DNA from: Phycisphaerae bacterium | GTDB taxonomy: Bacteria; Planctomycetota; Phycisphaerae; UBA1845; Fen-1342 | Assembly (NCBI GenBank): GCA_046350315.1 | Contig: JAXMAP010000002.1 | Span: forward strand, 1,824,390 to 1,888,389 | DNA length: 64,000 bases | Reading direction: 5' to 3' | Shown: positions 1 to 40,440 of the stretch, piece by piece | Numbering within the stretch: position 1 is the stretch's first letter | How the letters are laid out: every line of letters begins with the position of its first letter | Made by a program: the position numbers and the translations under genes | Notes under the pieces: model-generated | Database searches by the model: none | What the model saw: the letters and a program-made list of their open reading frames with translations, nothing else | What the model was told of the DNA's origin: nothing

Positions 1-142
1 ACCGGTGCCGTTCGAGGCCAGCATCTCCTATCGTGACAGTTTCGCTCGTCATGCGGAGTTGAGCGAAGTTACGTTTGAAGACGCTGAGCCGGCGGCTGAG
101 CGGGACGACGAGGCAGACAACGGAGGTTCGGCCGATGCCTGA
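1..142 (+). CDS. 3' end (46 codons) of an upstream gene truncated by the window edge. Its stop overlaps the pAgo start by 8 nt. Candidate APAZ-domain partner of the short pAgo, identity not determinable.
   Basis: Open frame from nt 2 to a TGA at 140-142 (..PVPFEASISYRDSFARHAELSEVTFEDAEPAAERDDEADNGGSADA*). The ATG of the next gene (135) lies inside it, indicating translational coupling. No start codon in the window. Confidence 0.4.
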   Translation, partial: PVPFEASISYRDSFARHAELSEVTFEDAEPAAERDDEADNGGSADA

Positions 143-1694
143 ACTGCGATACATCAAGGAACCCGGCCTGCTTTTCCGGCACGATCAGGCTGTAGAGGAC
201 CCGCGGGACGGGTTGACGTTGTTCGGCCCACTCGACGAGGGCAAACCCTACGGCATTCGATGGGGGCTGATAGGGCCGGAGGACAGCCTTCAACGCGTTG
301 AGCAGTGGGTGTCCGGCATTAACAGGCGCGTTGTCGATTCCGAGCCTGTTCGCTATGGCCGAAAACAGTCGCCAAGCGCTCGCGGGCCCGATCTCGCGCG
401 CCCCCCGTACCCCGGATTTCACGCGGCGTTCGAGATTCCCTGGTCAAGTAAGCCGGTGCAGCGCCTCACTGTGCCAGAAAAGGAACTGGCCAAAGTCGCG
501 TTTCTCGATGACCCGCATCAACGTGTTTTCAACACAGTCAACGCGTACTCCGAACGCATCATCGACTGTCTTCGACGCGAAGAGGCCAGGCCGGACATAT
601 GGTGCGTTGCCATCCCGGAGTACGTTTATCAAAATTGTCGACCACGGTCCTACGTGGAATCGAGCGAGCGAGTCAAGGCCGAAGCTCGCTTGACGCGATC
701 GGAGGCAAAGGCCATCGCCGCTGCCCCGCTGCTGTTCGACGAGGAAAACAAGCTAGCCAAGCCGTACGAATACGAGCTGAATTTCCACCATCAACTCAAG
801 GCGCGGCTGCTTCCTCACAATGCTCCGACCCAGATCATTCGGGAAACGACCATCGCGCATCGCGACTTTCTCGACTCGAAGGGTGAGCCGACGCGGAAAC
901 TGGACGGCATGGAGTCAGCGATTGCATGGACAATATCGACGGCAGCTTTCTACAAGTCCGGCGGCCGCCCCTGGAAACTTGGCGCCGCTCGGCCTGGCGT
1001 GTGCTATGTCGGCTTAGTCTTCAAGCAAGACGAGAAACACCGCGATCCACGAACGGCGTGCTGTGCCGCACAGATGTTTCTCGATTCGGGCGACGGCGTT
1101 GTTTTCAAGGGCGCTGTCGGTCCGTGGTATCGCGGAAAACGAGGGCTCTTTCATCTTTCTCGCGCGGCCGCGGCTGAAGTAATCCGGATGTGCATCGACT
1201 CATATGCTGACCGGTTTGACGGCAAGCCGCCAGACGAAGTGTTTATCCATGGCCGTGTTCGTTTTGAAGATGACGAGTGGGCCGGGTTTCTCGACGGCGC
1301 AGGCGGCAAGACGCGTGTTGTGGGTGTCCGAATTCGCGACGACGAAGATCTGAAGGTCTTCCGCCGAACCGCTTTTCCGATCTTACGTGGACATTGGTTC
1401 CGCATCGGCGACCGAATGGCCTCGCTCTGGACGCGCGGGTTTGTGCCCAGGTTGCGCAGCTACCCCGGTCTGGAAGTGCCGAATCCCCTGTTTATCGACG
1501 TATGTCGCGGTGACGCCGACATCGAAACTGTCGTGCGCGATGTCTTGGCGCTCACAAAGCTGAATTACAATTCATGCGTCTTTGCGGATGGTGCACCGGT
1601 CACGCTGAAGTTCGCCAAAGCGGTCGGTGAGATTCTTACAGCCGGGCCGTTGAACGGAACGATTCCACCGCTTCCGTTCAAGCACTATATTTGA
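135..1694 (+). CDS. Short prokaryotic Argonaute (MID + PIWI domains only), predicted catalytically inactive.
   Basis: MID-like motifs: PDIWCVAIPEYVY, NFHHQLKARLL, PTQIIRETTI and AFYKSGGRPWKL (the K-GG-W box at the MID/PIWI junction). PIWI-like RNase H region: CYVGLVFKQDEKH sits in place of G-DVSH, DEVFIHGRVRFEDDEWAGF in place of the RDG-motif block, and RVVGVRIRDDED...PVTLKFAKAV at the C-terminal end. There are no acidic catalytic residues at the expected DEDX positions. The 520-aa length fits short pAgos. GGAGG lies 6 nt upstream of the ATG at 135, and the ORF table's 75 start is an in-frame upstream extension. Confidence 0.75.
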   Translation: MPELRYIKEPGLLFRHDQAVEDPRDGLTLFGPLDEGKPYGIRWGLIGPEDSLQRVEQWVSGINRRVVDSEPVRYGRKQSPSARGPDLARPPYPGFHAAFEIPWSSKPVQRLTVPEKELAKVAFLDDPHQRVFNTVNAYSERIIDCLRREEARPDIWCVAIPEYVYQNCRPRSYVESSERVKAEARLTRSEAKAIAAAPLLFDEENKLAKPYEYELNFHHQLKARLLPHNAPTQIIRETTIAHRDFLDSKGEPTRKLDGMESAIAWTISTAAFYKSGGRPWKLGAARPGVCYVGLVFKQDEKHRDPRTACCAAQMFLDSGDGVVFKGAVGPWYRGKRGLFHLSRAAAAEVIRMCIDSYADRFDGKPPDEVFIHGRVRFEDDEWAGFLDGAGGKTRVVGVRIRDDEDLKVFRRTAFPILRGHWFRIGDRMASLWTRGFVPRLRSYPGLEVPNPLFIDVCRGDADIETVVRDVLALTKLNYNSCVFADGAPVTLKFAKAVGEILTAGPLNGTIPPLPFKHYI

Positions 1695-1845
1695 GCCACA
1701 AATCGATACACAACCAGGAATGTGGTCCCACAAACAGTCTTGTTCTCGAACGGCCTGGGGGACCATCGGGCGCTTCCGTTTCGGCCGTTTGCTCGTGGAA
1801 CACGACGTGCAATAACGGCTGGCACGAACAGAAAGCGAGGAAGCA

Positions 1846-3342
1846 ATGACCGCAACGTTCAACTGCCCGAAGTGCCAGATCCCGATCGAAATCACCGAGG
1901 TGATGACCAGTCAGCTCCGCGACCGGCTGCGGAGCGAACTCGACGCTGAATTGGCGCCCGAGCGCACGCGACTGTCGGAGCAAGCCGCAAAGATCGCGGG
2001 CGACCGACAGGCGCTTGATAAGCAGCGCGAGGCCGTGGACGAGCAGGTCCGGCAGCGGCTGGATGCCGAGCGCCAGAAGCTCACCGCCCTCGCCCGCGAG
2101 AAGGCCGCCGCAGACATAGCGGTCGAGCTGCGCGACCGCGACGAGCAAATCCGCGAGGCCAATGCCAAGCTCAAGGCGGCCACGGACCAGGAACTCGCCT
2201 GGCGGAAGAAGGAGCGCGACCTTCAGGCACGCGAGGCGGCCCTCACAGCTGAGCGCAACCAAATGGCCGAGGAGTCGCAGCGCCAGGTCGCGGCCGAGCG
2301 GCAGAAGCTGATCGAGGAAGGTCGCAAGAAGGCCGCCGGTGAGGCCGAGGCGCTGGTTCGCGAGCGTGACGAGGAACTATCCGGGCTGCGCGATCGGCTC
2401 AAGACCGCGAACGAGCAGGAGCTTCTGCTTCGCAAGCGCCAGCGCGAACTGGAGGAGCGCGGCGAGCAGATGCAGCTTGAAATCGACCGCAAGGTTGACG
2501 CCGAGCGGCAGCAGATTCGTGAAGCTGCCCGCAACCAGGTCGGCGAGGAGTTTGAACTCAAGCTCCGTGACGAGCAGCAGAAGAACGAAACGCTGCGCAA
2601 GCAGATCGACGACCTAAAGCGCCGCGCCGAGCAGGGTTCCCAGCAGGCCCAGGGCGAGACGCTGGAACTGGTCGTCGAGGAGATGCTCGCCGACGCATTT
2701 CGGAGCGACCGAATCGAGGAGGTTCGCAAAGGCGTCCACGGTGCGGACGTTCTGCAGCACGTGCTCGCGTCGAATGGCGCCGCGGCCGGCACAATCCTCT
2801 GGGAAACCAAGCGCGCCAAGAACTGGGCGGCCGATTGGCTCCGCAAGGCCCGTGAGGATCAGCGGGAGGCTGGCGCCGCCGTGGCCATCATCGTCAGCGA
2901 AGTGCTCCCCGCGGGCGTCACCCACGTTGGGATCGTCGAAGGGGTCTGGGTAACCAGTCGCGCCTGCGCAATCGCACTGGCGAAGTCGATCCGGATCGGT
3001 ATGCTCGAAGCGGCCAATGCCCGTCGCGCCATGGAAGGCCAGCACGGCAAGATGGAGTCCGTGTACGGGTACCTGACGGGAGTCGAGTTCAAGAACCGCG
3101 TGGTCGGCATGCTGGAGCCGCTGATCGCGATGCAGCAGACGCTCCAGAAGGAAAAGGTCGCGACGCAGCGCAGTTGGGCGGCGCGCGAGAAGCAAATTGA
3201 TCAGGTGTTCGGCGGGCTGGCTTGCGTTTACGGCGACCTTCAGGGGATCATCGGCGGCTCACTGCCGCGGATTGAGGCCTTGGAGCTGCCGGAATCGCCC
3301 GAGCCGAAGGCGGCCGGCACCTTGGCTCTTTCAGCGGGATAG
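1846..3342 (+). CDS. DUF2130-like protein: N-terminal zinc ribbon, long coiled coil, C-terminal restriction-endonuclease-like PD-(D/E)xK domain (RmuC-like architecture).
   Basis: N-terminal CPKC zinc ribbon. Residues ~20-260 are E/R/K/Q/A/L-rich heptad-like coiled coil. C-terminal block EEMLADAFRSDRIEEVRKGVHGADVLQHV...GTILWETKRAKNWAADWLRKAREDQREAGAAVAIIVSEVLP carries D...E-x-K. RBS GAGGAAG lies before the ATG. Confidence 0.65.
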   Translation: MTATFNCPKCQIPIEITEVMTSQLRDRLRSELDAELAPERTRLSEQAAKIAGDRQALDKQREAVDEQVRQRLDAERQKLTALAREKAAADIAVELRDRDEQIREANAKLKAATDQELAWRKKERDLQAREAALTAERNQMAEESQRQVAAERQKLIEEGRKKAAGEAEALVRERDEELSGLRDRLKTANEQELLLRKRQRELEERGEQMQLEIDRKVDAERQQIREAARNQVGEEFELKLRDEQQKNETLRKQIDDLKRRAEQGSQQAQGETLELVVEEMLADAFRSDRIEEVRKGVHGADVLQHVLASNGAAAGTILWETKRAKNWAADWLRKAREDQREAGAAVAIIVSEVLPAGVTHVGIVEGVWVTSRACAIALAKSIRIGMLEAANARRAMEGQHGKMESVYGYLTGVEFKNRVVGMLEPLIAMQQTLQKEKVATQRSWAAREKQIDQVFGGLACVYGDLQGIIGGSLPRIEALELPESPEPKAAGTLALSAG

Positions 3343-3360
3343 CCTCCGGGAGATGGCGCG

Positions 3361-5079
3361 TTGATAACGGCGATTGAGATCGAGAATTTCAAGGGCATCG
3401 GCCCGCGCCAGCGGATCGAGTTGGCCCCGATCACGTTGCTGTTCGGGGCCAATAGTTCCGGCAAAAGCACGTTCATTCACGCACTCCATTACGCCCTTGA
3501 GGTTCTCCAACGGCACAACTGCGACGCCGAACGCACCGCTTCCGGCGGTGAGTTTATCGATCTGGGCGGATTTCGCAGTTTCGTTCACGGCCGGGATTTG
3601 CAGCGCCGCGTGTCGATGCGGTTCGACCTCGACCTGCGCGAGCACAGCCTGCCGACCTACGGCGAGCGTGAGCCCGACTTCTCGATCTTTGATGAGGGTT
3701 ATGCAGACCGAGTCGAGCGCGCGGCCGTCGAATTTCAGGTCGCCTGGGACCACCAGAGTCAGATGCCGATTGTCTCGCGCTACGCGGTGGAACTGAACGG
3801 CGAGCGGTTTGCCGCGTTGGAAACCGACGCCGGACGCCGCGCAACCGTGCTCGCCGAGCTGAACTGGAACCATCCCGTTTTGCGCGAAGAGGGCGACGAA
3901 CAGGCGGCAGCAGACCAGGAATTGGAGGACCTTCACTCGAAGGTCGTCGTTCTGCATGAAGAGGCAGCTAAGCGCGGTTTGCGCAAGGATCCGCCGCCGC
4001 ATCTCGCATTCGGAATTCTGCATAGTTTGGTGAGCAAGGCGTTCGGCGTCGATGATGCGGATGTACAGCCGACGCCGGGGTGGGGTTTGGCTGGTTTGAT
4101 TGATGCACTCCCGACATGGGGGACAGTGCTCGAACCTGCGCTCCCGCTCTCATCGTCGACCGCGGGCGGCGACTCCGCCTCCAATGCCGACGCCGGCCAG
4201 CCGCGATCACAGTCAGAGATGAATGAAGCGGCCGAGCAATTCGCTGCATTGCTGACCCAACTGCTGGTTGGCCCCGGTGAACTGCTCACGCAAGCGCTCG
4301 CGTCGACTCGATATCTGGGGCCGCTCCGGGAGAAACCCATCCGCTCGCACGACGCCCATCACGTAGGCGACGCGAGGCGTTGGGCCAGCGGACTCGCGGC
4401 CTGGGATGCCCTGTTTCAGCGCGACGCAGCGTTCCTGACGCTCGTCAGCGAGTGGCTCAGTCGATCCGACCGGCTCGGCGCGGGAGTGAGCGTCACGAGC
4501 AGTGAATATCGCGAGATTGCCGTAGACGACCCGATTCTCGTGCAGCTTTCGGGCGGACACGCGTTCGATGACCTTGACTTGAACGATCTTCGTAATCGCC
4601 TTCGGCGAATCCCGATTCGCCGTAGGATCGTTCTGATAGATGAGGCGACCGGCGTCCAGTACCAACCGTTCGATGTCGGCGAAGGAATCTCGCAGCTTCT
4701 CCCCGTCGTTGTGGCACTCCTCGATCCAACGCCGGGCGTCATCGCGATCGAACAACCGGAACTGCACGTGCATCCAGCGATCCAAGTCGGCCTCGGAGAC
4801 CTCATCGCGTTCGGGATGGGGGTGCATGGCGCGACACGAGTAATCGAGACGCACAGCGAACACTTGCTTCTGCGGCTGCTGCGTCGGATCCGTGACACGG
4901 AAGACAACGGGCCTGAACAGCACGAGCATGTGCTTTCGCCGGACGACGTCGCCGTCTGGTACATTGAAGCTGTTGACGGCGTCACACGCGCGACGCGACT
5001 CCGCGTCGATGCCTCTGGCGAATTCCTTGATCGCTGGCCAAGGGGCTTCTTTGAAGAACGTGCTCAGGAACTTTTCTGA
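3361..5079 (+). CDS. AAA_21/ABC-type ATPase with C-terminal DUF3696 (OLD/Septu-PtuA/PARIS-AriA-like ATPase class).
   Basis: N-terminus IEIENFKGIG...LLFGANSSGKST (Walker A). Walker B/D-loop IAIEQPELHVHP. C-terminal ...FLDRWPRGFFEE (DUF3696 hallmark). TTG start 18 nt after the preceding stop. Confidence 0.8.
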   Translation: MITAIEIENFKGIGPRQRIELAPITLLFGANSSGKSTFIHALHYALEVLQRHNCDAERTASGGEFIDLGGFRSFVHGRDLQRRVSMRFDLDLREHSLPTYGEREPDFSIFDEGYADRVERAAVEFQVAWDHQSQMPIVSRYAVELNGERFAALETDAGRRATVLAELNWNHPVLREEGDEQAAADQELEDLHSKVVVLHEEAAKRGLRKDPPPHLAFGILHSLVSKAFGVDDADVQPTPGWGLAGLIDALPTWGTVLEPALPLSSSTAGGDSASNADAGQPRSQSEMNEAAEQFAALLTQLLVGPGELLTQALASTRYLGPLREKPIRSHDAHHVGDARRWASGLAAWDALFQRDAAFLTLVSEWLSRSDRLGAGVSVTSSEYREIAVDDPILVQLSGGHAFDDLDLNDLRNRLRRIPIRRRIVLIDEATGVQYQPFDVGEGISQLLPVVVALLDPTPGVIAIEQPELHVHPAIQVGLGDLIAFGMGVHGATRVIETHSEHLLLRLLRRIRDTEDNGPEQHEHVLSPDDVAVWYIEAVDGVTRATRLRVDASGEFLDRWPRGFFEERAQELF

Positions 5080-6026
5080 TGGTGTACGAGTTCGCCCTGG
5101 AGCCCGCGACCCTCGCGACATGGGAGCAGTTTCGCTATCTAACCGAGAAGTTCGGCGTAGATAACGGGCGCCTCATCGCTCAGTTTCCGAAATCGTGGAA
5201 GAAACTGGTCTATGACGCCTTCGCCGGCGCCGGCGACGTGGAGAAGAAGCGAATCGAGGAACGGCTCCAGCAGGAATCGTTTAGTCGCAAGCTCACACGG
5301 TCGAACCGCACGTACGATTCTGCGCAGGCTTGGCTTCCGAACGCCGAGCGTCAGCAGGAGGGTTCCGACCCTTTCCGCGCCATCATTGCCACGACCAACC
5401 CTAACAACTGCCCGTCCGTTCGCATCGCCTCCGAGCTTGATGAGACGGATCGGCTCTGGTCTGTAAGTCGAGAAGCCCGGATCGCCCGCACTTCGCACGC
5501 GCTAACAGCGGCCGCAGCCCCTCTTGTTCGCTGCAGTAGGGAGCTCCTGATTGTAGATCCGTATTTTGACCCGCAAGTTTCGAGGTTTCTTGACGTCTTT
5601 CAGTCACTGATGCGAGAAGTGTGTGGAGCGCGAAACGTGCCTCGGCGACTGGAGCTCCATTGCTCGAATGCGAGGAGCGGCACCACGGAGCATTGGGAGC
5701 AACAATGTAGCTCACGCCTGAGGCGGTTCATCGGCGCCAACTCCCGACTTCGCGTCGTCAGATGGGCTCAGCGTGCCGGAGGCGAGACGTTTCATGCGCG
5801 ATACATCCTGACCGAGCGCGGGGGACTCCGCTATGACGTTGGGCTCGATGCGGGACCACCTGGTGAAACTACAGACGTAATGCTTCTCGATACGCAGCTG
5901 CACATCGCTCGCTGGAATGACCTTCAGGAAGTTGACGCGAACGGGCGCACGCGCACTCCGGCCTTCGACAAGGTCGATGAGCTACTCATCTCGAACAGCA
6001 GTGCGACGCGCGTTTTCCCTACGTGA
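5079..6026 (+). CDS. Hypothetical protein, translationally coupled partner of the AAA ATPase (candidate effector component, no recognisable domain).
   Basis: Its ATG overlaps the TGA of the ATPase gene by 1 nt. 315-aa ORF with non-repetitive composition. No HNH, Toprim or PD-(D/E)xK motif confidently recognised. Confidence 0.5.
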   Translation: MVYEFALEPATLATWEQFRYLTEKFGVDNGRLIAQFPKSWKKLVYDAFAGAGDVEKKRIEERLQQESFSRKLTRSNRTYDSAQAWLPNAERQQEGSDPFRAIIATTNPNNCPSVRIASELDETDRLWSVSREARIARTSHALTAAAAPLVRCSRELLIVDPYFDPQVSRFLDVFQSLMREVCGARNVPRRLELHCSNARSGTTEHWEQQCSSRLRRFIGANSRLRVVRWAQRAGGETFHARYILTERGGLRYDVGLDAGPPGETTDVMLLDTQLHIARWNDLQEVDANGRTRTPAFDKVDELLISNSSATRVFPT

Positions 6027-6581
6027 CGGGCAATCGCCTTTTGCTTTCCTGAGCGCGGCGCTTTGCAAGACGTTGAGCAATTGCCACTTTATCTGAGCGA
6101 AGTCGCCCAACCCTCGCCTCACGCGCCCCGTGCCCCCCGGCGACACCAGGTCGCGCACGAGGGCTCTCAAGTCTCCGACGATCTGTCCGGCAAGGCGTAC
6201 AGATACCTGCCACCGCCTATCCCGCCCCTGGCGACAGCCAATGCTGTAGCCGGCAAACCTAATTGGCGCGCGACGAACGTCGCGAATTACCGCCTGCTCG
6301 CGCTCGAAGAATTCGTGCCGGCCCTTCGTCGCCAGCAGCACGAAGAACCGCCCGTGCCGCAGGTACTGCATGTTCGCTAGGCCCTGCTTCTTGCGCCGGC
6401 AGCGCGCCCACTTCGAAATCGCGATGCCGTAACGCTCGATGAGTTTCGCATCGACGGCGGCCGGATCCTTGCCCTCCGGGATGGTCCCGGTCACGTAGAA
6501 CCAGTAGCCGTGCGTGATGTACGCGACGGCGAGCTGCTGCACAAACCCCTCGATCGACGTGGCGACGCAACGATACTCCAT
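5982..6581 (-). CDS. Hypothetical protein. N-terminal ~115 aa look protein-like, the C-terminal half is Arg-rich and possibly frameshifted or degenerate.
   Basis: Start MEYRCVATSIEGFVQQLAVAYITHGYWFYVTGTIPEGKDP... is preceded by GGGAGGG 7 nt upstream on the minus strand. The long ORF-table N-terminal extension (to 6815) has no RBS and is rejected. Confidence 0.35.
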   Translation of the reverse strand: MEYRCVATSIEGFVQQLAVAYITHGYWFYVTGTIPEGKDPAAVDAKLIERYGIAISKWARCRRKKQGLANMQYLRHGRFFVLLATKGRHEFFEREQAVIRDVRRAPIRFAGYSIGCRQGRDRRWQVSVRLAGQIVGDLRALVRDLVSPGGTGRVRRGLGDFAQIKWQLLNVLQSAALRKAKGDCPSRRENARRTAVRDE

Positions 6582-8663: not shown

Positions 8664-8691
8664 CTTGACTCCAGCCCGCTGAGTGTTACTA
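8664..8691 (+). promoter_or_regulatory. Sigma-70-like promoter (TTGACT-N16-TACTAT) abutting the start codon of the XRE gene, implying a leaderless mRNA.
   Basis: -35 TTGACT and -10 TACTAT with a 16-nt spacer. The -10 hexamer ends 0-1 nt before the ATG. There is no room for a Shine-Dalgarno sequence. Confidence 0.35.
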
Positions 8692-9110
8692 TGTATGCGA
8701 ACAGTGAAAGGAGCGGTGCCTTGGCCCGAAAACCGAGAAGTGCTGACGAGATCGGCGACATTCTTCGCCGCCAGCGGAACGAGGTGCTCGGAAAGGGCCT
8801 GCGCGAAATGGCCCGCCAGCTCGGTACCGCTCCGGCCCACCTTACCGACATCGAACACGGCAACCGCTCGCCGTCCGAAGCCCTGCTGGTCAAGATCGCC
8901 CGCGCCTACGAGATTCCCGAGCCGCAGCTCCGCGCCGCCTGGAGCAAGCCCGATGAAATCGTCGAAGAAATCGCAAGTCAGGATGCGACGGCGGCCGCCA
9001 AAGTGCCCGAACTCCTGCGGTCGGCCCGGAAGTTCACCGAATCGCAATGGAATGCACTGATCGACGCGGCCAAGAAGCTGGCCGCCGAGAAGAAGGGCAA
9101 GGCGGACTGA
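8691..9110 (+). CDS. XRE-family helix-turn-helix transcriptional regulator (ImmR/CapH-like).
   Basis: HTH block LREMARQLGTAPAHLTDIEHGNRSPSEALLVKIARAY. 139 aa. Paired with the downstream ImmA/IrrE peptidase through a TGATGG stop/start overlap. Confidence 0.8.
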   Translation: MYANSERSGALARKPRSADEIGDILRRQRNEVLGKGLREMARQLGTAPAHLTDIEHGNRSPSEALLVKIARAYEIPEPQLRAAWSKPDEIVEEIASQDATAAAKVPELLRSARKFTESQWNALIDAAKKLAAEKKGKAD

Positions 9111-9838
9111 TGGCCGCACGTCGGTACGAGTACGGCAAGCTCTTCGAGCCCGCCAGCGGCGGCAAGCTGATCGAGCGCAAAGCGCGCCGCTCGCTCTCGT
9201 ACTGCATCCACAAACTCGGGTTTTCGGAAGTACCACTCCCCATTCCCGTCGATCGCTGGATCGAAACGGCGTTTGGCATCCGATTCGGCATCGCGGACTT
9301 GTCGCACATCGGTCGCCGTGTGCTGGGTGCGTCGTTCCTGCGCGACCGCGAGATCCTCATCTCCGAGAACGCCCTGTCCAATGAAGGACGCTACCGCTTC
9401 ACGTGTGCTCACGAGTTGGCCCATTTCGTATTGCATGAGCACGTCCGCGACCAGTTCTGCGACGAGGAAGAACCGGAAATCGTTTTCGACGACGAGATTG
9501 AGCGCGAGGCCGACCGGTTCGCCGCGGCGTTCCTGATGCCGGTGAATCTGTTCGAGCGTGAGGTGGTCCTGATTGCCCGGGATATCGGCGCCGACCCGCA
9601 CTGGTGCCTGACCGAGTTAATGCTGGCGAGCGACGAGTCGATCAAATTGTGGCAGAACATCTTCGTGCCGGCGCTCAGCCGTCGCTTCGGCGTCTCCAAG
9701 ACGGCGGCCCTGATTCGCGCGCACGGTCTTCAGCTGATTGGCGACGATCCGCGGACGCTGATTCCGACGCGGCTTTTTTACGACCTGCTGCCCAAGCCCG
9801 TTTCCACCGTTGCTCCGAGGCCAATGGAGGGTGCGTAA
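9110..9838 (+). CDS. ImmA/IrrE-family zinc metallopeptidase (DUF955, CapP-like).
   Basis: HEXXH motif in FTCAHELAHFVLHEH plus the downstream EREADRFAAAFLMP. Start MAARRYEYGK overlaps the XRE stop. Confidence 0.8.
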   Translation: MAARRYEYGKLFEPASGGKLIERKARRSLSYCIHKLGFSEVPLPIPVDRWIETAFGIRFGIADLSHIGRRVLGASFLRDREILISENALSNEGRYRFTCAHELAHFVLHEHVRDQFCDEEEPEIVFDDEIEREADRFAAAFLMPVNLFEREVVLIARDIGADPHWCLTELMLASDESIKLWQNIFVPALSRRFGVSKTAALIRAHGLQLIGDDPRTLIPTRLFYDLLPKPVSTVAPRPMEGA

Positions 9839-10202: not shown

Positions 10203-10589
10203 TTGCGAACGGCTTTCGACGCTATGATCGACCAAACCACTTCAACGCCGTCAAACGCTGACCTCCTGCGGGTGTTGCAGCAGATCGAAGTCCATCTCTC
10301 CGCGCTTCGGGACGGGACGACATCGTCACGGCCCGAGTGGCTTACCGTGGATGAAGTCGCATCGGAACTCAAACTTTCGCGTGACTCGATCGAGCGATTG
10401 ATCGCCTGCGGCCGGCTGCAAGCGGCCAAGGTGACCGGTATCGCCGGACGCGGACGGCGCCGCCGTCTTCGAATTCACCGCGACTGGGTTGATGTGTTTC
10501 TCAGATCGTCGGCGAAGCTCCCGCCCTCTCCACGAAAGACCCGAAACCGTCGTTCGAGCGTCTCCAAGTCGATCGACTTCATCCAGTAG
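10203..10589 (+). CDS. Excisionase-family helix-turn-helix DNA-binding protein (Xis-like).
   Basis: WLTVDEVASELKLSRDSIERLIACGRLQAAKVTG resembles the excisionase/MerR-like HTH. Convergent with and overlapping the 3' end of the integrase gene. Confidence 0.5.
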   Translation: MRTAFDAMIDQTTSTPSNADLLRVLQQIEVHLSALRDGTTSSRPEWLTVDEVASELKLSRDSIERLIACGRLQAAKVTGIAGRGRRRRLRIHRDWVDVFLRSSAKLPPSPRKTRNRRSSVSKSIDFIQ

Positions 10590-11829
10590 CGGCTTGTAGC
10601 GGCGCGGCCGTGCTGGCAGACTCCGGCCAGAGGCGCGATCGAACCAGGTTGACAACCCGCCGTAATCTTTCCAGCCCGATCTCCTCGATGTACACACCAC
10701 TCATCCCGGGGATGCTGTGACCCATGATGCGATGGATGGCGTGCTGGTCGCCGCAATCGTCCGCCCAAGTGCGAAACGTGTGTCGCAATGAATAGAAGCC
10801 CAACCCGTATCGCTTGAGCTTCAGTTCGACCAGCAGCCCGTCAAACCAGTCGCCAAGGCGGTCCACATACACGACTTTCTTGATCTCGCGGCCGTCGCTT
10901 CGCTGCATGATCTGCCGAACCAGCGGGTAGCCCTGTTCGCTACGGAACAGCAGCGGCTTTGCCTCGTCGCTGGCGGCTTTCGGTCGCTCACCCTCAAGCA
11001 CGGTCCGGATCGCCGCGACCGTCTCCGGCCAGAGCGGCACGATTCGGCGCACTGCGGTCTTCGGCCGCTCGAAGTCGATAATCGCTCGGTCCAGGTCGAT
11101 CGCCACGGTGGGCACAGCCGAACAGTCGGTGTTCCCGAACCCGCCGTTGATCCCCAGCAGAATCGCGGCTTTCACGTTCGCGGATGCCGCCTTGAGCAAT
11201 GCGCGAATCTGCTCTGCCGTAAAAAGTTTCTTGCCGTTTTCACGCTCGCGCTTCGCCCGGCTTCGTCGTACGTCCGCGGCCGACGGCTTGGCGAACGCCT
11301 GGCCGTATCGAGGTAGCTGCTCAAGGACTCCATTCTGAACGGCCCATTTGAACATGCCCTGGATGGCGACGATGGTCCGCGTGATTGCATGTACGCCGAG
11401 CGCCTTGTTTCCGCGCAGGCCGCGCGATCCAATTAAGCGCCGGTAGGCTAGGAAGTCATCCGGCCTGAGACTCCTCACCGGTCGCGCTGTGCCAACCGAG
11501 CGAGCAAACTGTCGAATCACACGGCGGCAATCCTCGAACCATCGACCGCCGATCTGCCCGGTCTCGACGCGCTGCATCTGGTATGCGAGGAACTGGTTTC
11601 CCAACTCCTTCACGGTAAACTCGCCTTCCTCTGCCGGGGATGGCTCGCGCCCCGCGTGCAAATCCTCGGCGATGCGTAGATAATTCTGGTGCGCGGCGTC
11701 CGGGTCGGACCAGACGCCGAAGAAGTGCAGCTTGCCGAGGATCTTCTTACACCACTGACCGTTCGGGTGAGCAGTCAGCGGGAAGGAGGGATACGGCTTG
11801 TTCGGCTTGCGACGAGGACGCTTGGCCAT
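10579..11829 (-). CDS. Tyrosine-type site-specific integrase (phage integrase family).
   Basis: C-terminal catalytic region ...LRHTFRTWADDCGDQHAIHRIMGHSIPGMSGVYIEEI (R...HxxR...Y). N-terminus MAKRPRRKPNKPYPSFPLTAHPNGQWCKKI is typical. GGAGG RBS before the ATG at 11829. The upstream ORF-table extension to 11931 is rejected. Confidence 0.85.
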   Translation of the reverse strand: MAKRPRRKPNKPYPSFPLTAHPNGQWCKKILGKLHFFGVWSDPDAAHQNYLRIAEDLHAGREPSPAEEGEFTVKELGNQFLAYQMQRVETGQIGGRWFEDCRRVIRQFARSVGTARPVRSLRPDDFLAYRRLIGSRGLRGNKALGVHAITRTIVAIQGMFKWAVQNGVLEQLPRYGQAFAKPSAADVRRSRAKRERENGKKLFTAEQIRALLKAASANVKAAILLGINGGFGNTDCSAVPTVAIDLDRAIIDFERPKTAVRRIVPLWPETVAAIRTVLEGERPKAASDEAKPLLFRSEQGYPLVRQIMQRSDGREIKKVVYVDRLGDWFDGLLVELKLKRYGLGFYSLRHTFRTWADDCGDQHAIHRIMGHSIPGMSGVYIEEIGLERLRRVVNLVRSRLWPESASTAAPLQAATG

Positions 11830-11970
11830 GACGACAACCTCCGGCGCGCCGCTGCGTTTGTTCGCTCCACGAAACGCGAGCGTAGAGGGCGACCCGGTTG
11901 TCGTCAAGGTTGTCGTCGTGTTTTTCCACAACAGCAGTAAGCAACATAAGTCGTTTATTTACAGATAGTT

Positions 11971-12043
11971 GCCACCGTAGCTCAATTGGCAGAGCAGCGG
12001 TTTTGTAAACCGCAGGTTTCGGGTTCGAGTCCCGACGGTGGCT
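11971..12043 (+). tRNA. tRNA-Thr (anticodon UGU), no encoded CCA.
   Basis: Cloverleaf folded by hand. Acceptor GCCACCG/CGGTGGC, D-stem GCTC/GAGC, anticodon stem GCGGT/ACCGC with loop TTTGTAA (U33, UGU, A37), T-stem TCGGG/CCCGA, T-loop TTCGAGT. Confidence 0.85.
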
Positions 12044-12129: not shown

Positions 12130-13461
12130 TCACGTCAGTCTCGCGCGCTCGCATGCCAGCAGGAACCGCGCGACCTGCAGCTCCCCCCAGTATCGCGCGC
12201 GGCCTGGCCACACGCCGGCGATGAAGCCCTGGTGCCCGCCGTCGCGCGTGATCTGAGGAATGATCCACGGCGAATCGAGCATCTCGTTCGGAATCGACTC
12301 GGCGGGAACGAACGGATCGTCGCGCGACGCGATGACGAGCGTCGGAACGCGGATTCTGGTCATCAGCGGGCCGCAACTGCATCGCGCGTAATAGTCGTCC
12401 ACTCCGGCATAGCCGAACACCTTCGCCGTCACGATGGCGTCGAACTCCTCCATCGTGCGGCAGGTTCGTAATCGCTCCACGTCGATCAGGCCCGGAAATT
12501 GCCGCGCTTTTTCGAGAGCCTGCGGGATCAACAGTTGCATGAAATACCGCGAATACCGACCGCCCAGCGCTCGCGAGATAGTCGCCGCGCATTTGGACAG
12601 ATCGAACGGCGCGGCGACTACGGCCGCGCCGGACACTCGCGCCACCGCCCTCGAATCCTGCACCGGCGCGCCGGAGACCGAAACCTGGGCCTCCGCGCCC
12701 GAAACCGGCGCCACAGCGCGGGAAACCTGCGCCGCCGCACCGCAGACGCTCGCCGCCGCGCCCGAAAGTCCGGACGCTGCGCCGCGCAAACCCAGCAACC
12801 GCGCCGCCACGCTGCCGCCCAGCGAGAAACCGACCAGATAGATCGACCGGACGCCGCCGGCGCGCAGATGCGCGATGCTTGTCTCGACGTCGTCGACGTC
12901 GCCGGCTGAATACGTCCTGTGCGTGCGGTTCATTCGGCCGCCGCAGCTTCGGAATTCCATCACCGCAACGTTCCAGCCGTGCGGCGCGAGTAGCGCGGTC
13001 AGGCCGTGAATCCACGGCGCCTGCGCGGAACTGCCCAGCCCGTGGAGCAGCAGCGCGGTCGGCCCTAACGGATCGCCGTGCAGTCGATGAAGCCACAGTT
13101 CGTCGCCGTCGGGCGTCGGAACTGCCGTCGATTCAAACGCGGCTCTTCGCACACGCCGGAAGAGGTACGTCCAGATGGTCTGGCCATGCGCGTTTCGCAG
13201 CCACCAGGCGGAGCGAAACGGGTGGCGCGACAATTCGGCGAGAATTTCGTTCTTGAAACGTCTCGCCGCGGACGCGTCGCGCGTCGCATCGGCGGGCACG
13301 CGCGCTCCGTCAGAGCCGCGACCGTAAGGGAGCGGTCGGTCCGGAGCGGCGAGCGTCGTCGGGCTCGCCGGGATGGCCTCGACGCCCAGGCCGACCGCTC
13401 CCTTACGGTCGCGGCTCTGACCAGACTCAGGCTTCGCGGATTCCGCCCTTCGCAACGGCAT
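12130..13461 (-). CDS. Alpha/beta hydrolase, YheT-like family. The true start is probably downstream of the annotated one (GTG within ...VPADATRD...).
   Basis: GDELWLHRLHG...LLLHGLGSS...HGWNVAVMEFRSCGG...YLVGFSLGGSV (nucleophile elbow GxSxG) ...ASRDDPFVP...GGHQGF. The 5' ~150 nt of the ORF is the translation of a REP-like palindrome (RPLPYGRGS), so the annotated Met is unlikely to be the real start. Confidence 0.65.
   Translation of the reverse strand: MPLRRAESAKPESGQSRDRKGAVGLGVEAIPASPTTLAAPDRPLPYGRGSDGARVPADATRDASAARRFKNEILAELSRHPFRSAWWLRNAHGQTIWTYLFRRVRRAAFESTAVPTPDGDELWLHRLHGDPLGPTALLLHGLGSSAQAPWIHGLTALLAPHGWNVAVMEFRSCGGRMNRTHRTYSAGDVDDVETSIAHLRAGGVRSIYLVGFSLGGSVAARLLGLRGAASGLSGAAASVCGAAAQVSRAVAPVSGAEAQVSVSGAPVQDSRAVARVSGAAVVAAPFDLSKCAATISRALGGRYSRYFMQLLIPQALEKARQFPGLIDVERLRTCRTMEEFDAIVTAKVFGYAGVDDYYARCSCGPLMTRIRVPTLVIASRDDPFVPAESIPNEMLDSPWIIPQITRDGGHQGFIAGVWPGRARYWGELQVARFLLACERARLT
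12640..12800. repeat. Degenerate ~27-30-bp tandem repeats (minisatellite) inside the hydrolase CDS, encoding a low-complexity Gly/Ala/Ser/Val insert.
   Basis: Recurring units cgcgccggagaccgaaacc, cgcgcccgaaaccggcgcc, cgcgcccgaaagtccggacgc. Protein insert GAASGLSGAAASVCGAAAQVSRAVAPVSGAEAQVSVSGAPVQDSRAVARVSGAAVV. Confidence 0.5.
13311..13418. repeat. REP/MITE-like palindromic element, copy A (29-bp perfect inverted repeat with ~50-nt loop).
   Basis: cagagccgcgaccgtaagggagcggtcgg ... ccgaccgctcccttacggtcgcggctctg. Shares the core gaccgtaagggagcgg/ccgctcccttacggtc with four other loci. Confidence 0.7.
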
Positions 13462-13478
13462 CGCTCACCCACTCCGCG

Positions 13479-15446
13479 TCATGGCTTCACGCCCCCCGCC
13501 TGTATCTCGATCTCGTGCGCGAATTCCGGCTGGCGATTCGCTCGCGCCAGCCGTACCGCCTCGCGATACGCATCCAGCGCGGCGCGCGGTTCGCTGGCCA
13601 GTTCGTGCACGAAGCCATACGCGAAACGCACCTCGGCGTCGTCCGGGTGCGCCTCGACCGCCCGTTTCACCGCGTCCAGCGCCGACGACTTTCGGCCCTT
13701 CACAAGATGGATCGCGGCCAGTTGGGTCAACGCGCTCCGGTCGTGCGGGTTGTCGCGTAATCGCGCCTGCTGGCGCTGTTCCTCTGCGTCCAGCGCGCCG
13801 GCGCTGAGAACACGGGCGAAATTGAGCTGCGCATTGGGATACACCGGCCGCGCGGCCAGCGCCGCGCGGAAGTGCGTCTCGGCTTCCGCCGCGCGATTCA
13901 GCGAGAGCAACGCGGCTCCGAGATTGTTGTGATACACCGGGTCGTCCGGCGTTCGTTTCAGCAGTGCCTGGTACTCCGCGACCGCCTCGGCGAATTTCTT
14001 GTGGCCTAGATAAGCCTCGCCCAAGCGACGGTGTCCAAAGTCATATGCCGGGTTGTCCGCCACTGTTCGCGACCAGAATTCGATCTCACCGCGCCAAGTC
14101 GGGACCCGCTGATACGTGAACCACGCCAGCGCTCCGACAGCGCCGACGCAAATTAGCGTTACCAGCGCCCCGGGCACCCGCGCCGCAAGGCCGTGCGCCG
14201 GCGGCGTACCGAAGGTCAGCTTCGCAAGGCTCTGGGCGGCGAGCGCAACGAGAATCGCCGGGGCGATCGCGGCCAGATAGACGTACTGGTCGCCGACCGG
14301 CGCGTGGCGCAGATAGCCGAAGTTCAAGAGTCCCAGCACCGGCAGCATCGTGATGGCGTAATGGGCGGCGCACCAAAGCGCCGCGGCGCCAGGTCGGAGC
14401 CGCGGCGTGAGCGTGCTGTCAGGCGTGCGAGCCGGCGCGTTCGAATCTGAGACTTGAGATTTCTGTTCGCCGCCAGGCGGCGTTGTTTTCGCCCTCGCGC
14501 GGCGCGAAACAGTCCATGCAGAGGTGAACAACACCGCCGCCGCGAGCAATACTGCAATCGGCGCCAGCAGCCACGGCAGCGCCATCGCTGGCGTCCATTG
14601 CGGGTAGACGGTCGCCAAGTGCGCGGGCCACAGGAACTTGCCCAGGTAGAACCAGAATGCCGTCGCCGCGACGACCGGCCGTAGCGGAAGCGCCGCCGCC
14701 CCGACGTAGACTCCCTGCGCCTCGAATTGCGAGTCGATTCGAATCAGCACCGCGCCGATGACCAGCAGGATCGCCAGCGGCTGGACGAGCGACCAGCCGC
14801 GCCGGCGACACAAGACGGCGTCCGCGACCAGCGTCGAACCGAGCATCGTCACCGCCGCCGATTTGCTCAGCATCGCCGCCAGAAACGCGAACATGGCCCA
14901 GCGATACAGCGCGGGGCGGGCGTCGCGCCGCCATAGCAGATAGGACAGGAAACCGATCAGCGCGAATAGCGTCGAGAGCACGTTTTTTCGCGATGCCAGC
15001 CACGCGACCGAGGCGGCCTGCATCGGGTGCAGCGCGAAAATCGCCGCCGCCAACAACGCCGCCGGCTGCGCGAGCCCGAGCATCAGCGCGACGCGCAGCA
15101 CCAGCAGCGCATTGGCCGCGTGCAGCAGGACGTTGACGGCGTAATAACCGCCCGCCCAGTCGCCCCAGAGCTGATGTTCGACCCAGTGCGTGGTGAACGT
15201 GAGCGGATAAAACTTCCGCACCACGTCGATCGGCAGCCAGGTGCGGATCAGGCCGTCGATCGAGCGCAGATTCGGATTGTCGCGAATGTAGATGTCGTCA
15301 TCCCAGACGACAAAATCGTTTCGAATACCCGGCGAGTACGCCAACAGCAGCGCAAGCGGCAGGACGGCCCAGCCGGCCAGTGGCCACCGGCGTGCTTCGC
15401 GGCCGTCGGGTGTGGTGAGGCCAAGTTGAATAGAAGCTGCGTTCAT
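13479..15446 (-). CDS. Polytopic membrane protein with C-terminal TPR repeats (PMT/GT39- or O-antigen-ligase-like N-terminal domain).
   Basis: N-terminal ~420 aa very hydrophobic with multiple TM segments. C-terminus has repeated A..Y...L TPR-like 34-mers (AEAVAEYQALL..., AEAETHFRAAL..., SALDAVKRAVE...). Confidence 0.6.
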   Translation of the reverse strand: MNAASIQLGLTTPDGREARRWPLAGWAVLPLALLLAYSPGIRNDFVVWDDDIYIRDNPNLRSIDGLIRTWLPIDVVRKFYPLTFTTHWVEHQLWGDWAGGYYAVNVLLHAANALLVLRVALMLGLAQPAALLAAAIFALHPMQAASVAWLASRKNVLSTLFALIGFLSYLLWRRDARPALYRWAMFAFLAAMLSKSAAVTMLGSTLVADAVLCRRRGWSLVQPLAILLVIGAVLIRIDSQFEAQGVYVGAAALPLRPVVAATAFWFYLGKFLWPAHLATVYPQWTPAMALPWLLAPIAVLLAAAVLFTSAWTVSRRARAKTTPPGGEQKSQVSDSNAPARTPDSTLTPRLRPGAAALWCAAHYAITMLPVLGLLNFGYLRHAPVGDQYVYLAAIAPAILVALAAQSLAKLTFGTPPAHGLAARVPGALVTLICVGAVGALAWFTYQRVPTWRGEIEFWSRTVADNPAYDFGHRRLGEAYLGHKKFAEAVAEYQALLKRTPDDPVYHNNLGAALLSLNRAAEAETHFRAALAARPVYPNAQLNFARVLSAGALDAEEQRQQARLRDNPHDRSALTQLAAIHLVKGRKSSALDAVKRAVEAHPDDAEVRFAYGFVHELASEPRAALDAYREAVRLARANRQPEFAHEIEIQAGGVKP

Positions 15447-40195: not shown

Positions 40196-40281
40196 CGAAC
40201 CGACAAACAGGATCGCGCCGGCGTGCTGACACGCCGTATCAGGCGGCCGTGCGGCGCGATTGCCGCACGGTAATAACGCGA

Positions 40282-40354
40282 TGAGGGCGCTGGGACTCGA
40301 ACCCAGGACCCACGGCTTAAAAGGCCGTTGCTCTACCGACTGAGCTACGCCCTC
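40282..40354 (-). tRNA. tRNA-Lys (anticodon UUU).
   Basis: Reverse complement GAGGGCG-TA-GCTC-AGTCGGTA-GAGC-A-ACGGC-CTTTTAA-GCCGT-GGGTC-CTGGG-TTCGAGT-CCCAG-CGCCCTC-A folds as a canonical cloverleaf. Confidence 0.85.
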
Positions 40355-40440
40355 AACTTCTTGTTATCTGGTCATTTACTCGCCCGCGTCGGCATCACGA
40401 CAACCCTTGGAACAGCCCGTTGACAAACGCTGCTAACCGA

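What the first reader, a model, noticed from the sequence alone, without database searches (positions are those of the whole stretch)
1..1694. Short catalytically dead Argonaute (MID+PIWI) whose start is nested in the stop of a truncated upstream partner gene
The 520-aa protein at 135-1694 has the hallmarks of a short pAgo. An intact MID 5'-end pocket is suggested by HHQLK, PTQ and the YKSGGRPWKL junction box. The PIWI RNase H fold has CYVGLVFKQD and VFIHGRVRFED where active Agos carry GxDV(S/T)H and RDG, so no DEDX catalytic tetrad. Short pAgos always work with an APAZ-domain partner fused to an effector (TIR in SPARTA, SIR2 in SPARSA, DREN/Mrr nucleases, etc.), encoded immediately upstream. 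Here the upstream gene is translationally coupled (ATG at 135 lies inside its last codons, stop 140-142), but only its last 46 codons are in the window. The effector identity, and hence the system type, cannot be read. The acidic C-terminal tail (EDAEPAAERDDEADNGGSADA) of the partner is visible. What follows the pAgo is unusual (see next finding), which raises the possibility of a new short-pAgo system architecture.
Basis: partly seen in the sequence, partly recalled or inferred. Interest (0 to 1): 0.85.

Follow-up and report, generated by a model that had tools for sequence, protein, structure and literature searches.

The report
Ordinary SPARTA (TIR-APAZ/short Argonaute) defence operon
The gene at 135-1694 is a short, nuclease-dead bacterial Argonaute, and its truncated upstream partner, recovered from an identical public contig, is a TIR-APAZ NADase, so this is a normal member of the well-studied SPARTA abortive-infection system rather than a new architecture.

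Summary
There is a 519-aa ORF at 135-1694 with a GGAGG ribosome-binding site. Its ATG overlaps the last codons of a truncated upstream gene that ends in an acidic tail.

The reading "short pAgo with an APAZ partner" is also correct. The open question, which effector, is now answered. An identical public contig (L001, 0 mismatches over 6,521 nt) supplies the whole 485-aa upstream gene. It is a TIR-APAZ protein (Pfam TIR_2 1.5e-19; PADLOC Aga_TIR-PNTD1-PNTD2 4e-120; solved SPARTA TIR-APAZ chains ~1e-69).

The pAgo matches solved Crt/Map/Bab SPARTA pAgos end to end (E ~1e-150; Foldseek TM 0.88-0.90).
- Conserved: the TIR catalytic Glu (E98 = Map E77) and Trp, the MID 5'-phosphate pocket (H218, K222, Y165, N479, C-terminal I519) and the auto-inhibitory acidic tail.
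- Selection: dN/dS is 0.04-0.14.

The "unusual" downstream genes (DUF2130, AAA/DUF3696 ATPase, 315-aa ORF) follow SPARTA only in two syntenic Planctomycetota genomes. They are absent in relatives at 78% identity or below. They are other cargo of a tRNA-Thr/integrase island.

Verdict: a new member of a known kind, and of low interest.

The parts
2..142 (+). 3' end (last 46 codons plus TGA) of the TIR-APAZ gene: the end of the APAZ domain and the acidic auto-inhibitory C-terminal tail. The full gene is L001:3301-4758 (485 aa).
   Evidence: - Translation.
- Window 1-6521 is identical to L001 4617-11137.
- The full protein hits Pfam TIR_2 at 1.5e-19 (residues 27-152), PADLOC Aga_TIR-PNTD1-PNTD2 at 4e-120 and PDB TIR-APAZ chains 8qlo_A/8fex_A at ~1e-69.
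- The tail, residues 451-485, has 12 D/E in 35 residues.
122..126 (+). Shine-Dalgarno-like GGAGG, 8 nt upstream of the pAgo ATG and inside the TIR-APAZ coding sequence (translational coupling).
   Evidence: Sequence read directly. Overlapping or abutting TIR-APAZ/pAgo junctions are common across related loci.
135..1694 (+). Short prokaryotic Argonaute (MID+PIWI, 519 aa) of SPARTA type, clade S2A.
   Evidence: - PADLOC pAgo_I 2e-188.
- PDB 8ifk_B (Crt) 8e-152, 8fex_B (Map) 1e-143 and 8qlo_B (Bab) 1e-143, all full length.
- AF2 model pLDDT 78.4 / pTM 0.80. Foldseek: the top 36 hits are all SPARTA pAgo chains, best 8isy_A at E=2e-57 and TM 0.88/0.90.
- dN/dS 0.037-0.047.
786..833 (+). MID-domain 5'-phosphate pocket motifs: H218-x3-K222 and Q233, equivalent to MapAgo H207, K211 and Q222.
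   Evidence: Residue mapping from the HMMER alignment. The roles of His207 and Lys211 are described in PMC11156904. K222 and Q233 are invariant and H218 is >=90% conserved in 29 homologues.
351..398 (+). Lineage-specific insertion (residues ~73-88, sequence ...RYGRKQSPSARGPDL) in a MID-domain loop just before R89 (= Map R72). It is predicted to be disordered.
   Evidence: The insertion is present only in the query and P0001 among 29 aligned sequences. P0101 has an unrelated insertion at the same loop. pLDDT is <50 for residues 73-88.
999..1253 (+). PIWI RNase-H-like core without catalytic acids. Strand 289-297 reads VCYVGLVFK. Strand 368-373 reads EVFIHG and ends in HG, where active Argonautes have RDG.
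   Evidence: Secondary structure of the model. H372 and G373 are invariant in the family. Absence of DEDX and of cleavage was shown for Crt/Map SPARTA (PMC9097488; bioRxiv 10.1101/2023.07.14.549122).
1569..1691 (+). C-terminal segment carrying N479 and the terminal I519, which act as Mg2+/5'-phosphate ligands in MapAgo (N468, I507), plus the PPL motif used in pAgo-pAgo dimerisation.
   Evidence: Mapping and the alignment. Roles are described in PMC11156904, PMC10474274 and PMC10899771.

Best explanation
Window 2-1694 is the 3' two-thirds of a canonical two-gene SPARTA operon (TIR-APAZ followed by a short pAgo; Koopal clade S2A). The host is a Phycisphaerae-like planctomycete, and the operon lies inside a tRNA-Thr/integrase-bounded defence island.

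The mechanism is inferred by homology to Map/Crt/Bab SPARTA and was not tested here:
1. The two proteins form a 1:1 heterodimer. [quoted passage not shown]
2. The MID pocket (H218, K222, Y165, N479, the I519 carboxylate, Mg2+) holds the 5'-phosphate of a small guide RNA.
3. Pairing with complementary ssDNA from a highly transcribed, multicopy invader expels the tail and reshapes the PIWI surface.
4. pAgo-pAgo dimerisation and then tetramerisation bring the TIR domains together.
5. The composite TIR active site (E98, W67) hydrolyses NAD(P)+, which kills or arrests the cell (abortive infection).

The pAgo does not itself cut nucleic acid.
For: **Shown here**
- An identical contig supplies the full partner.
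- The partner is TIR-APAZ: Pfam TIR_2 1.5e-19, PADLOC 4e-120, PDB ~1e-69.
- The pAgo is homologous over its full length to solved SPARTA pAgos at E~1e-150. The next-best classes are far weaker: SPARDA 1e-30 to 1e-34 and SPARSA 1e-22 by sequence, 1e-31 and 1e-27 by fold.
- Functional residues are conserved: TIR S29, H30, W67, E98, R134, N136; pAgo R89, Y165, H218, K222, Q233, R236, T239, R254, N479, I519.
- E77-equivalent Glu is invariant, and acidic tails (11-20 D/E in the last 35 residues) are present in all 22 aligned TIR-APAZ orthologues.
- TIR-APAZ sits directly upstream of the pAgo in 29 of 31 other loci by tblastn at E<=1e-5. Overlapping or abutting junctions are frequent.
- Purifying selection: dN/dS 0.04-0.05 for the pAgo and 0.11-0.14 for TIR-APAZ.

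**From the literature**
- NADase activity, E77A loss of function and lack of target cleavage: PMC9097488.
- Auto-inhibition by the C-tail: 10.1101/2023.07.12.548734 and PMC10899771.
- MID pocket residues: PMC11156904.
Against: - No biochemical evidence exists for this particular pair.
- Map Tyr105, called catalytic in PMC11156904, is Phe125 here. Phe is the commonest residue at that position, in 16 of 22 related TIR-APAZ proteins, so it is unlikely to be inactivating.
- Several Map nucleic-acid contacts differ: pAgo H251->A262 and K287->Q298; APAZ R201->W222 and K366->S399.
- Absence of DEDX could not be confirmed by a direct alignment to an active Argonaute. D299, which is >=90% conserved in this subfamily but is Ile/Val in Crt/Map, lies two residues after the first PIWI strand. 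Its structural equivalence is unresolved.
- The full TIR-APAZ gene lies outside the window. It is known only through contig L001, which is identical across the 6.5-kb overlap.
Confidence: 0.93

Rival explanations
1. A new multi-gene short-pAgo architecture. In this reading the downstream DUF2130 protein, the AAA_15/21-DUF3696 ATPase and the 315-aa protein, and/or the upstream orf68 and orf141, are obligate accessory components of the Argonaute system.
For: - All genes are co-oriented and tightly packed.
- The block TIR-APAZ-pAgo-DUF2130-ATPase-orf315 is conserved in three assemblies: the window/L001, RAS1 (L002/L003) and AMX-MBFR-47 (L005).
- The orf141 stop overlaps the TIR-APAZ ATG.
Against: - The three assemblies share the same chromosomal flanks (sigma-54 activator, hsdR/M/S). 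The co-linearity is therefore inherited synteny within one shallow clade.
- The trio is absent from all 30 other SPARTA loci examined, including relatives at 78%, 73%, 67% and 60% identity, whose neighbours are all different.
- orf68 and orf141 are already missing in L005, at 94% pAgo identity.
- A 151-nt gap separates the pAgo from DUF2130.
- The ATPase independently matches stand-alone defence candidates NsnB, PDC-M55A and HEC-03B.
- Koopal 2022 found no specifically associated gene other than the APAZ protein (PMC9097488).
Confidence: 0.04
2. A different short-pAgo class (SPARSA with SIR2-APAZ, SPARDA with DREN-APAZ, SPARHA, or Mrr-TIR-APAZ) rather than plain SPARTA.
For: Before the contig was extended the effector was unknown. 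PADLOC also gives weaker hits to an Aga_SIR2 fusion model (4.5e-24) and to Aga_REase-TIR-PNTD (9e-41).
Against: - The upstream protein has a TIR domain at residues 27-152. No SIR2, DREN or HNH domain was detected.
- The match to the REase-TIR model covers only its TIR-APAZ part (model positions 142-554). The 22-residue N-terminal extension is far too short to be an Mrr domain.
- The pAgo is 100 or more orders of magnitude closer to SPARTA pAgos than to SPARDA or SPARSA pAgos.
Confidence: 0.01
3. A decaying or inactivated SPARTA remnant: the ORFs are intact but the function is lost, for example through Y105F or the changed channel residues.
For: Tyr105->Phe125 and a few changed nucleic-acid contacts. 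There is also a disordered insertion next to R89.
Against: - dN/dS is 0.04-0.14 against two orthologues with dS of 0.24-0.62.
- The catalytic Glu and Trp, the MID pocket and the tail are all intact.
- Phe at the Tyr105 position is the commonest state, in 16 of 22 relatives.
Confidence: 0.02

Closest known systems
CrtSPARTA (Crenotalea thermophila TIR-APAZ + short pAgo; PDB 8isy, 8ifk and others)
   Same: - Same two-gene order.
- Full-length pAgo match: E=8e-152 by sequence; Foldseek reports 44% identity and TM 0.88/0.90.
- TIR-APAZ match at 1.6e-66.
- Shared catalytic Glu, MID pocket, acidic C-tail and C-terminal Ile.
   Different: - A ~14-17-residue disordered insertion before R89, and a 7-residue deletion around residue 207 of the pAgo.
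- A 22-residue N-terminal extension and internal insertions in the APAZ domain (485 vs 450 aa).
- Planctomycetota host with ~60% GC.
MapSPARTA (Maribacter polysiphoniae; PDB 8fex, 8ffi, 8sp0/8squ), the reference system for in vivo work
   Same: - pAgo E=1e-143, 46% identity over 499 aligned positions.
- pAgo residues H207, K211, Y148, N468, I507, R72, R225, T228 and R243 are all conserved.
- TIR residues W46, E77, R114 and N116 are conserved.
   Different: - TIR Y105->F125.
- pAgo H251->A and K287->Q.
- APAZ R201->W, K211->G and K366->S.
SPARDA and SPARSA short-pAgo systems (for example XauSPARDA 9qbq, GsSPARSA 8in8/8jkz)
   Same: Same MID+PIWI short-pAgo fold and the same APAZ-partner logic. 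Foldseek E=1e-27 to 1e-31.
   Different: The effector domain is a DREN nuclease or SIR2 rather than TIR. pAgo identity is only 19-25%. According to 10.1101/2023.07.12.548734, the acidic auto-inhibitory tail is absent in SPARSA.

Membership tests
SPARTA (short pAgo clade S2A, Koopal 2022) | The Argonaute consists of MID and PIWI domains only (no N or PAZ), about 500 aa. | tested here: met
   519 aa. It aligns end to end (1-519 vs 1-507) with solved SPARTA pAgos. The fold matches at TM 0.88-0.90.
SPARTA (short pAgo clade S2A, Koopal 2022) | A TIR-APAZ protein is encoded immediately upstream, on the same strand and in the same operon. | tested here: met
   L001:3301-4758 hits TIR_2 at 1.5e-19, PADLOC Aga_TIR-PNTD1-PNTD2 at 4e-120 and PDB TIR-APAZ at ~1e-69. 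There is an 8-nt overlap with the pAgo start. This relies on contig L001 being the same sequence: there are 0 mismatches over 6,521 nt.
SPARTA (short pAgo clade S2A, Koopal 2022) | TIR NADase catalytic glutamate (Map/Crt E77) and the conserved Trp46. | tested here: met
   E98 and W67 align with E77 and W46 in a gap-free stretch. The Glu is invariant in 22 orthologues.
SPARTA (short pAgo clade S2A, Koopal 2022) | MID-domain 5'-phosphate/Mg2+ pocket (Map H207, K211, Y148, N468, C-terminal I507). | tested here: met
   H218, K222, Y165, N479 and I519. They are invariant or at least 90% conserved in the family alignment.
SPARTA (short pAgo clade S2A, Koopal 2022) | The PIWI domain lacks the DEDX catalytic tetrad and does not cleave targets. 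| tested here: inconclusive
   - Profile and HMM alignment to the verified human AGO2 PIWI (D597/E637/D669/H807) failed: hhalign probability 3%, hmmsearch E=0.12.
- Indirect support: the model's strands 289-297 and 368-373 carry no acid at the expected ends, and an invariant HG replaces RDG.
- Crt/Map SPARTA lack the tetrad and show no cleavage (PMC9097488; 10.1101/2023.07.14.549122).
- The equivalence of D299 is unresolved.
SPARTA (short pAgo clade S2A, Koopal 2022) | Acidic C-terminal tail on TIR-APAZ that auto-inhibits by occupying the guide/target channel. | tested here: met
   Sequence feature only: 12 D/E and 2 K/R in the last 35 residues (window 2-139). Occupancy of the channel was not tested.
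SPARTA (short pAgo clade S2A, Koopal 2022) | Closer to SPARTA pAgos than to the S1A, S1B or S2B clades. | tested here: met
   PDB E-values are 1e-143 to 1e-152 for SPARTA, against 1e-49 to 1e-22 for other short pAgos. The fold search gives the same ranking. No formal tree was built.
SPARTA (short pAgo clade S2A, Koopal 2022) | 1:1 heterodimer; tetramerisation and NAD(P)+ hydrolysis dependent on guide RNA and target ssDNA; abortive infection. | not testable with these tools
   This needs biochemistry or in vivo assays. It is inferred from homology only.
Mrr-TIR-APAZ subclade of S2A | An N-terminal Mrr/REase domain fused to TIR-APAZ. | tested here: not met
   Only 22 residues precede the TIR domain. 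The PADLOC REase-TIR model matches only from its position 142 onward.

The most novel reading that the evidence does not exclude
The Phycisphaerae SPARTA lineage may be a regulated variant. In this reading the basic, disordered MID-loop insertion next to R89 (a contact of the C-tail in BabSPARTA) retunes auto-inhibition. In the RAS1/window lineage, a small N-terminally hydrophobic protein (orf141, translationally coupled to TIR-APAZ) and a 68-aa regulator-like protein would add a third and fourth component to the operon.
Probability: 0.06. Interest if true: 0.45.

Novelty: new member of a known kind. Interest (0 to 1): 0.15.

Why it matters
- **Little new biology.** SPARTA has been characterised genetically, biochemically and structurally since 2022, and this pair carries every hallmark.
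- **Annotation.** Pfam and NCBIfam both miss the pAgo, and the RAS1 orthologue is labelled "hypothetical protein". This is an under-annotated SPARTA in Planctomycetota.
- **Scan logic.** The flagged "unknown effector" is resolved, and the neighbouring genes should be judged as independent defence-island cargo, not as Argonaute accessories.
- **Diagnostics.** A ~60% GC, presumably mesophilic SPARTA orthologue could be one more candidate for SPARTA-based nucleic-acid detection, but nothing here suggests special properties.

Tried and rejected
1. **Pfam and NCBIfam on the pAgo.** No hit. I do not count this as evidence against a PIWI fold, because PADLOC, PDB and fold searches are overwhelming.
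2. **Direct DEDX alignment.** I verified a human AGO2 PIWI fragment against the PDB. I then ran hhalign of the 29-sequence family profile against it (probability 3%) and hmmsearch --max with a PIWI-only profile (E=0.12, a spurious 18-residue match). Both failed, so tetrad equivalences remain inferred.
3. **Terminator and promoter scan of 1-6500.** Counts equal the shuffled expectation (1 vs 0.9; 6 vs 5.8). One weak stem/T-run at 1753-1771 lies in the pAgo-DUF2130 gap. This is not usable evidence for or against read-through.
4. **PHROGs and NCBIfam on orf141, DUF2130 and orf315.** Nothing found. orf68 weakly resembles a D5-like transcriptional regulator segment.
5. **Considered and rejected.** SPARSA, SPARDA or Mrr-TIR-APAZ identity; a pseudogenised system; and the TTG at 75 as the start codon (homologues begin at the Met at 135, and GGAGG precedes it).
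6. **Not attempted.** A formal phylogeny of short-pAgo clades, modelling of the complex, and a metagenome-wide neighbourhood census.
Full report
**1. Observation**

The window begins inside a + strand gene whose frame (2-142) gives 46 codons...PVPFEASISYRDSFARHAELSEVTFEDAEPAAERDDEADNGGSADA, and then TGA at 140-142. A second + strand ORF ends at 1692-1694. Its mechanical first start is TTG at 75. Homologues and solved structures align from the Met encoded at 135, and GGAGG sits at 122-126, 8 nt upstream. The protein is 519 aa. The ATG overlaps the upstream gene by 8 nt (ATGCCTGA).

**2. Identity of the 519-aa protein**

Pfam-A and NCBIfam return nothing.
- PADLOC's pAgo_I model PDLC02378 matches residues 3-519 against model positions 3-493 of 493, at E=2e-188.
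- phmmer against the PDB gives full-length matches to the short pAgo subunits of Crt, Map and Bab SPARTA at E=8e-152 to 1e-143. Other short pAgos (SPARDA, SPARSA and others) score only 1e-49 to 1e-22.
- An AlphaFold2 model built on 29 homologues (pLDDT 78.4, pTM 0.80) finds SPARTA pAgo chains as its top 36 Foldseek hits. The best is 8isy_A at E=2e-57 and TM 0.88/0.90. SPARDA follows at ~1e-31 and SPARSA at ~1e-27.
- The database holds 4,309 homologues at E<=1e-20. The nearest named one is 97% identical, from Phycisphaerae bacterium RAS1 (Planctomycetota).

**3. The missing partner**

An exact-sequence look-up found a Logan contig, L001 (11,137 nt), that carries the same protein. Window 1-6521 equals L001 4617-11137 with 0 mismatches. 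The upstream gene is L001:3301-4758, 485 aa.
- It has a TIR domain at residues 27-152 (Pfam TIR_2, 1.5e-19).
- It matches PADLOC Aga_TIR-PNTD1-PNTD2 at 4e-120 over residues 23-468.
- It matches solved TIR-APAZ chains of Bab, Map and Crt SPARTA at ~1e-69 to 1e-66.
- Only 22 residues precede the TIR domain, so it is not the Mrr-fused variant.

**4. Functional residues**

I used the HMMER alignments to MapSPARTA. PDB 8fex is MapSPARTA per its entry titles, and its TIR-APAZ chain is the same sequence as 8sp0_A apart from one N-terminal residue. I mapped the residues that the literature defines experimentally.
- TIR: E77 (the E77A dead mutant of PMC9097488) maps to E98, W46 to W67, R114 to R134 and N116 to N136.
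- TIR Y105 is Phe125. Across 22 TIR-APAZ orthologues the Glu is invariant, and Phe is the commonest residue at the Tyr105 position, in 16 of 22. F125 is therefore normal.
- pAgo, MID pocket (PMC11156904): H207 maps to H218, K211 to K222, Y148 to Y165, N468 to N479, and the C-terminal I507 to I519.
- pAgo, backbone contacts: R72, R225, T228 and R243 are conserved as R89, R236, T239 and R254.
- A few contacts differ: pAgo H251->A and K287->Q; APAZ R201->W and K366->S.
It occupies the guide/target channel and auto-inhibits the complex (bioRxiv 10.1101/2023.07.12.548734; PMC10899771). All 22 orthologues have one (11-20 D/E in 35).

**5. Catalytic death of the PIWI domain**

I could not align the family to an active Argonaute by sequence. 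A human AGO2 PIWI fragment, verified as identical to PDB AGO2 residues 589-859, gave hhalign probability 3% and hmmsearch E=0.12.

The indirect evidence is as follows.
- In the model the first PIWI strand is 289-297 (VCYVGLVFK) and the fourth is 368-373 (EVFIHG).
- Neither strand ends in an acid. H372-G373 is invariant at the place where active Agos have R-D-G; that equivalence is my own motif knowledge.
- Crt/Map SPARTA were shown to lack the tetrad and any cleavage activity (PMC9097488; 10.1101/2023.07.14.549122).
- One loose end remains. D299 is conserved in at least 90% of this subfamily, is Ile/Val in Crt/Map, and lies two residues beyond the first strand.

I score this feature as inconclusive by direct test and very probable by homology.

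**6. Is there a new architecture?**

I fetched 28 genome loci plus six contexts from exact look-ups. I then searched all of them with the seven island proteins by tblastn.
- TIR-APAZ lies directly upstream of the pAgo in 29 of the 31 loci other than L001 and the L002/L003 pair at E<=1e-5. Several of these hits cover the TIR part only. The two loci without a hit (L028, L030) are distant alphaproteobacterial relatives.
- DUF2130, the AAA_15/21-DUF3696 ATPase and the 315-aa ORF occur only in RAS1 (L002/L003, 97%) and in Planctomycetota AMX-MBFR-47 (L005, 94%).
- Those two genomes also share the same outer flanks: a sigma-54 activator and type I hsdR/M/S. This is orthologous synteny, not independent re-association.
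- Relatives at 78% (L033), 73% (L004), 67% (L034) and 60% (L035) keep the TIR-APAZ/pAgo pair but have entirely different neighbours.
- orf68 and orf141, which lie upstream of TIR-APAZ, are absent already in L005.
- This agrees with Koopal 2022, where the APAZ protein is the only gene specifically linked to short pAgos.

The "new architecture" idea is not supported.

**7. Genomic setting**

The operon lies in a defence island with this gene order:
1. type I R-M (upstream, in L001/L002)
2. orf68
3. orf141
4. SPARTA
5. DUF2130 (1846-3342)
6. ATPase (3361-5079; PADLOC NsnB, PDC-M55A, HEC-03B)
7. orf315 (5079-6026)
8. unknown genes
9. HTH plus Peptidase_M78 pair (8691-9838)
10. tyrosine integrase (10579-11931, minus strand)
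11. tRNA-Thr (11971-12043)

This order rests.

**8. Selection**

Against the RAS1 and AMX-MBFR-47 orthologues, dN/dS is 0.037-0.047 for the pAgo and 0.11-0.14 for TIR-APAZ, with dS of 0.24-0.62. Both genes are maintained.

**9. Small peculiarities**

The pAgo carries a ~14-17-residue basic insertion just before R89.
- Only the query and P0001 have it among the 29 aligned sequences.
- P0101 has an independent insertion at the same loop.
- The insertion is predicted to be disordered.

This is a variable surface loop. Any effect on tail docking is speculative.

**10. Verdict**

This is a canonical SPARTA operon, a new, previously unannotated member of a known kind. The effector is TIR, and the hoped-for novelty is not there. 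Interest is 0.15.

Noticed in passing
window 10579-11931 (-) and 11971-12043 (+): A tyrosine integrase (Pfam Phage_integrase 5e-7) lies directly next to tRNA-Thr(TGT). This marks the right-hand edge of an integrative or defence island that contains the SPARTA operon. The RAS1 genome has an integrase gene at the equivalent position.
   Followed up: partly
window 8691-9110 (+) and 9047-9838 (+): An HTH_31/HTH_3 regulator followed by a Peptidase_M78 (ImmA/IrrE-like) protein. This pair is typical of mobile-element immunity or regulation modules, and it sits inside the same island.
   Followed up: no
window 3361-5079 (+) and 5079-6026 (+): An AAA_15/AAA_21 ATPase with a C-terminal DUF3696. Its best PADLOC matches are NsnB 2.6e-40, PDC-M55A 4e-38 and HEC-03B 4e-31. 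Its stop overlaps the start of a 315-aa ORF that has no family hit. This looks like a separate two-gene defence candidate. It is conserved with SPARTA only in the syntenic Planctomycetota genomes.
   Followed up: partly
window 1846-3342 (+): A 498-aa protein with a charged, coiled-coil-like N-terminal half and a DUF2130 domain (1.4e-55, residues 238-482). The N-terminal half varies in length: the L005 orthologue is 574 aa. It is only 80% identical to the RAS1 orthologue, while its neighbours are 91-97% identical.
   Followed up: partly
L001:2655-2861 and L001:2879-3304 (upstream of the window start): Two small ORFs lie between the type I R-M S subunit and TIR-APAZ. orf68 weakly resembles a D5-like transcriptional regulator segment (phrog_323, 1.7e-10). 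orf141 has a hydrophobic N-terminus, no family hit, and a stop that overlaps the TIR-APAZ ATG (ATGA). Both are present in RAS1 but absent in L005.
   Followed up: partly
L001:2-2247; L002:1352-7508: A complete type I restriction-modification system (hsdR, hsdM, hsdS) lies immediately upstream of the SPARTA operon, on the same strand.
   Followed up: no
L034:808-2030: In the 67%-identical relative, an extra stand-alone TIR-domain gene (264 aa) plus a 143-aa ORF sit just upstream of TIR-APAZ. The 143-aa ORF showed no tblastn similarity to orf141 at E<=1e-3.
   Followed up: partly
window 40280-40355 (-): A second tRNA gene, tRNA-Lys(TTT), lies far from the finding. Apart from two ORFs at 12130-15446 scanned, the window beyond ~12 kb was not annotated.
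   Followed up: no
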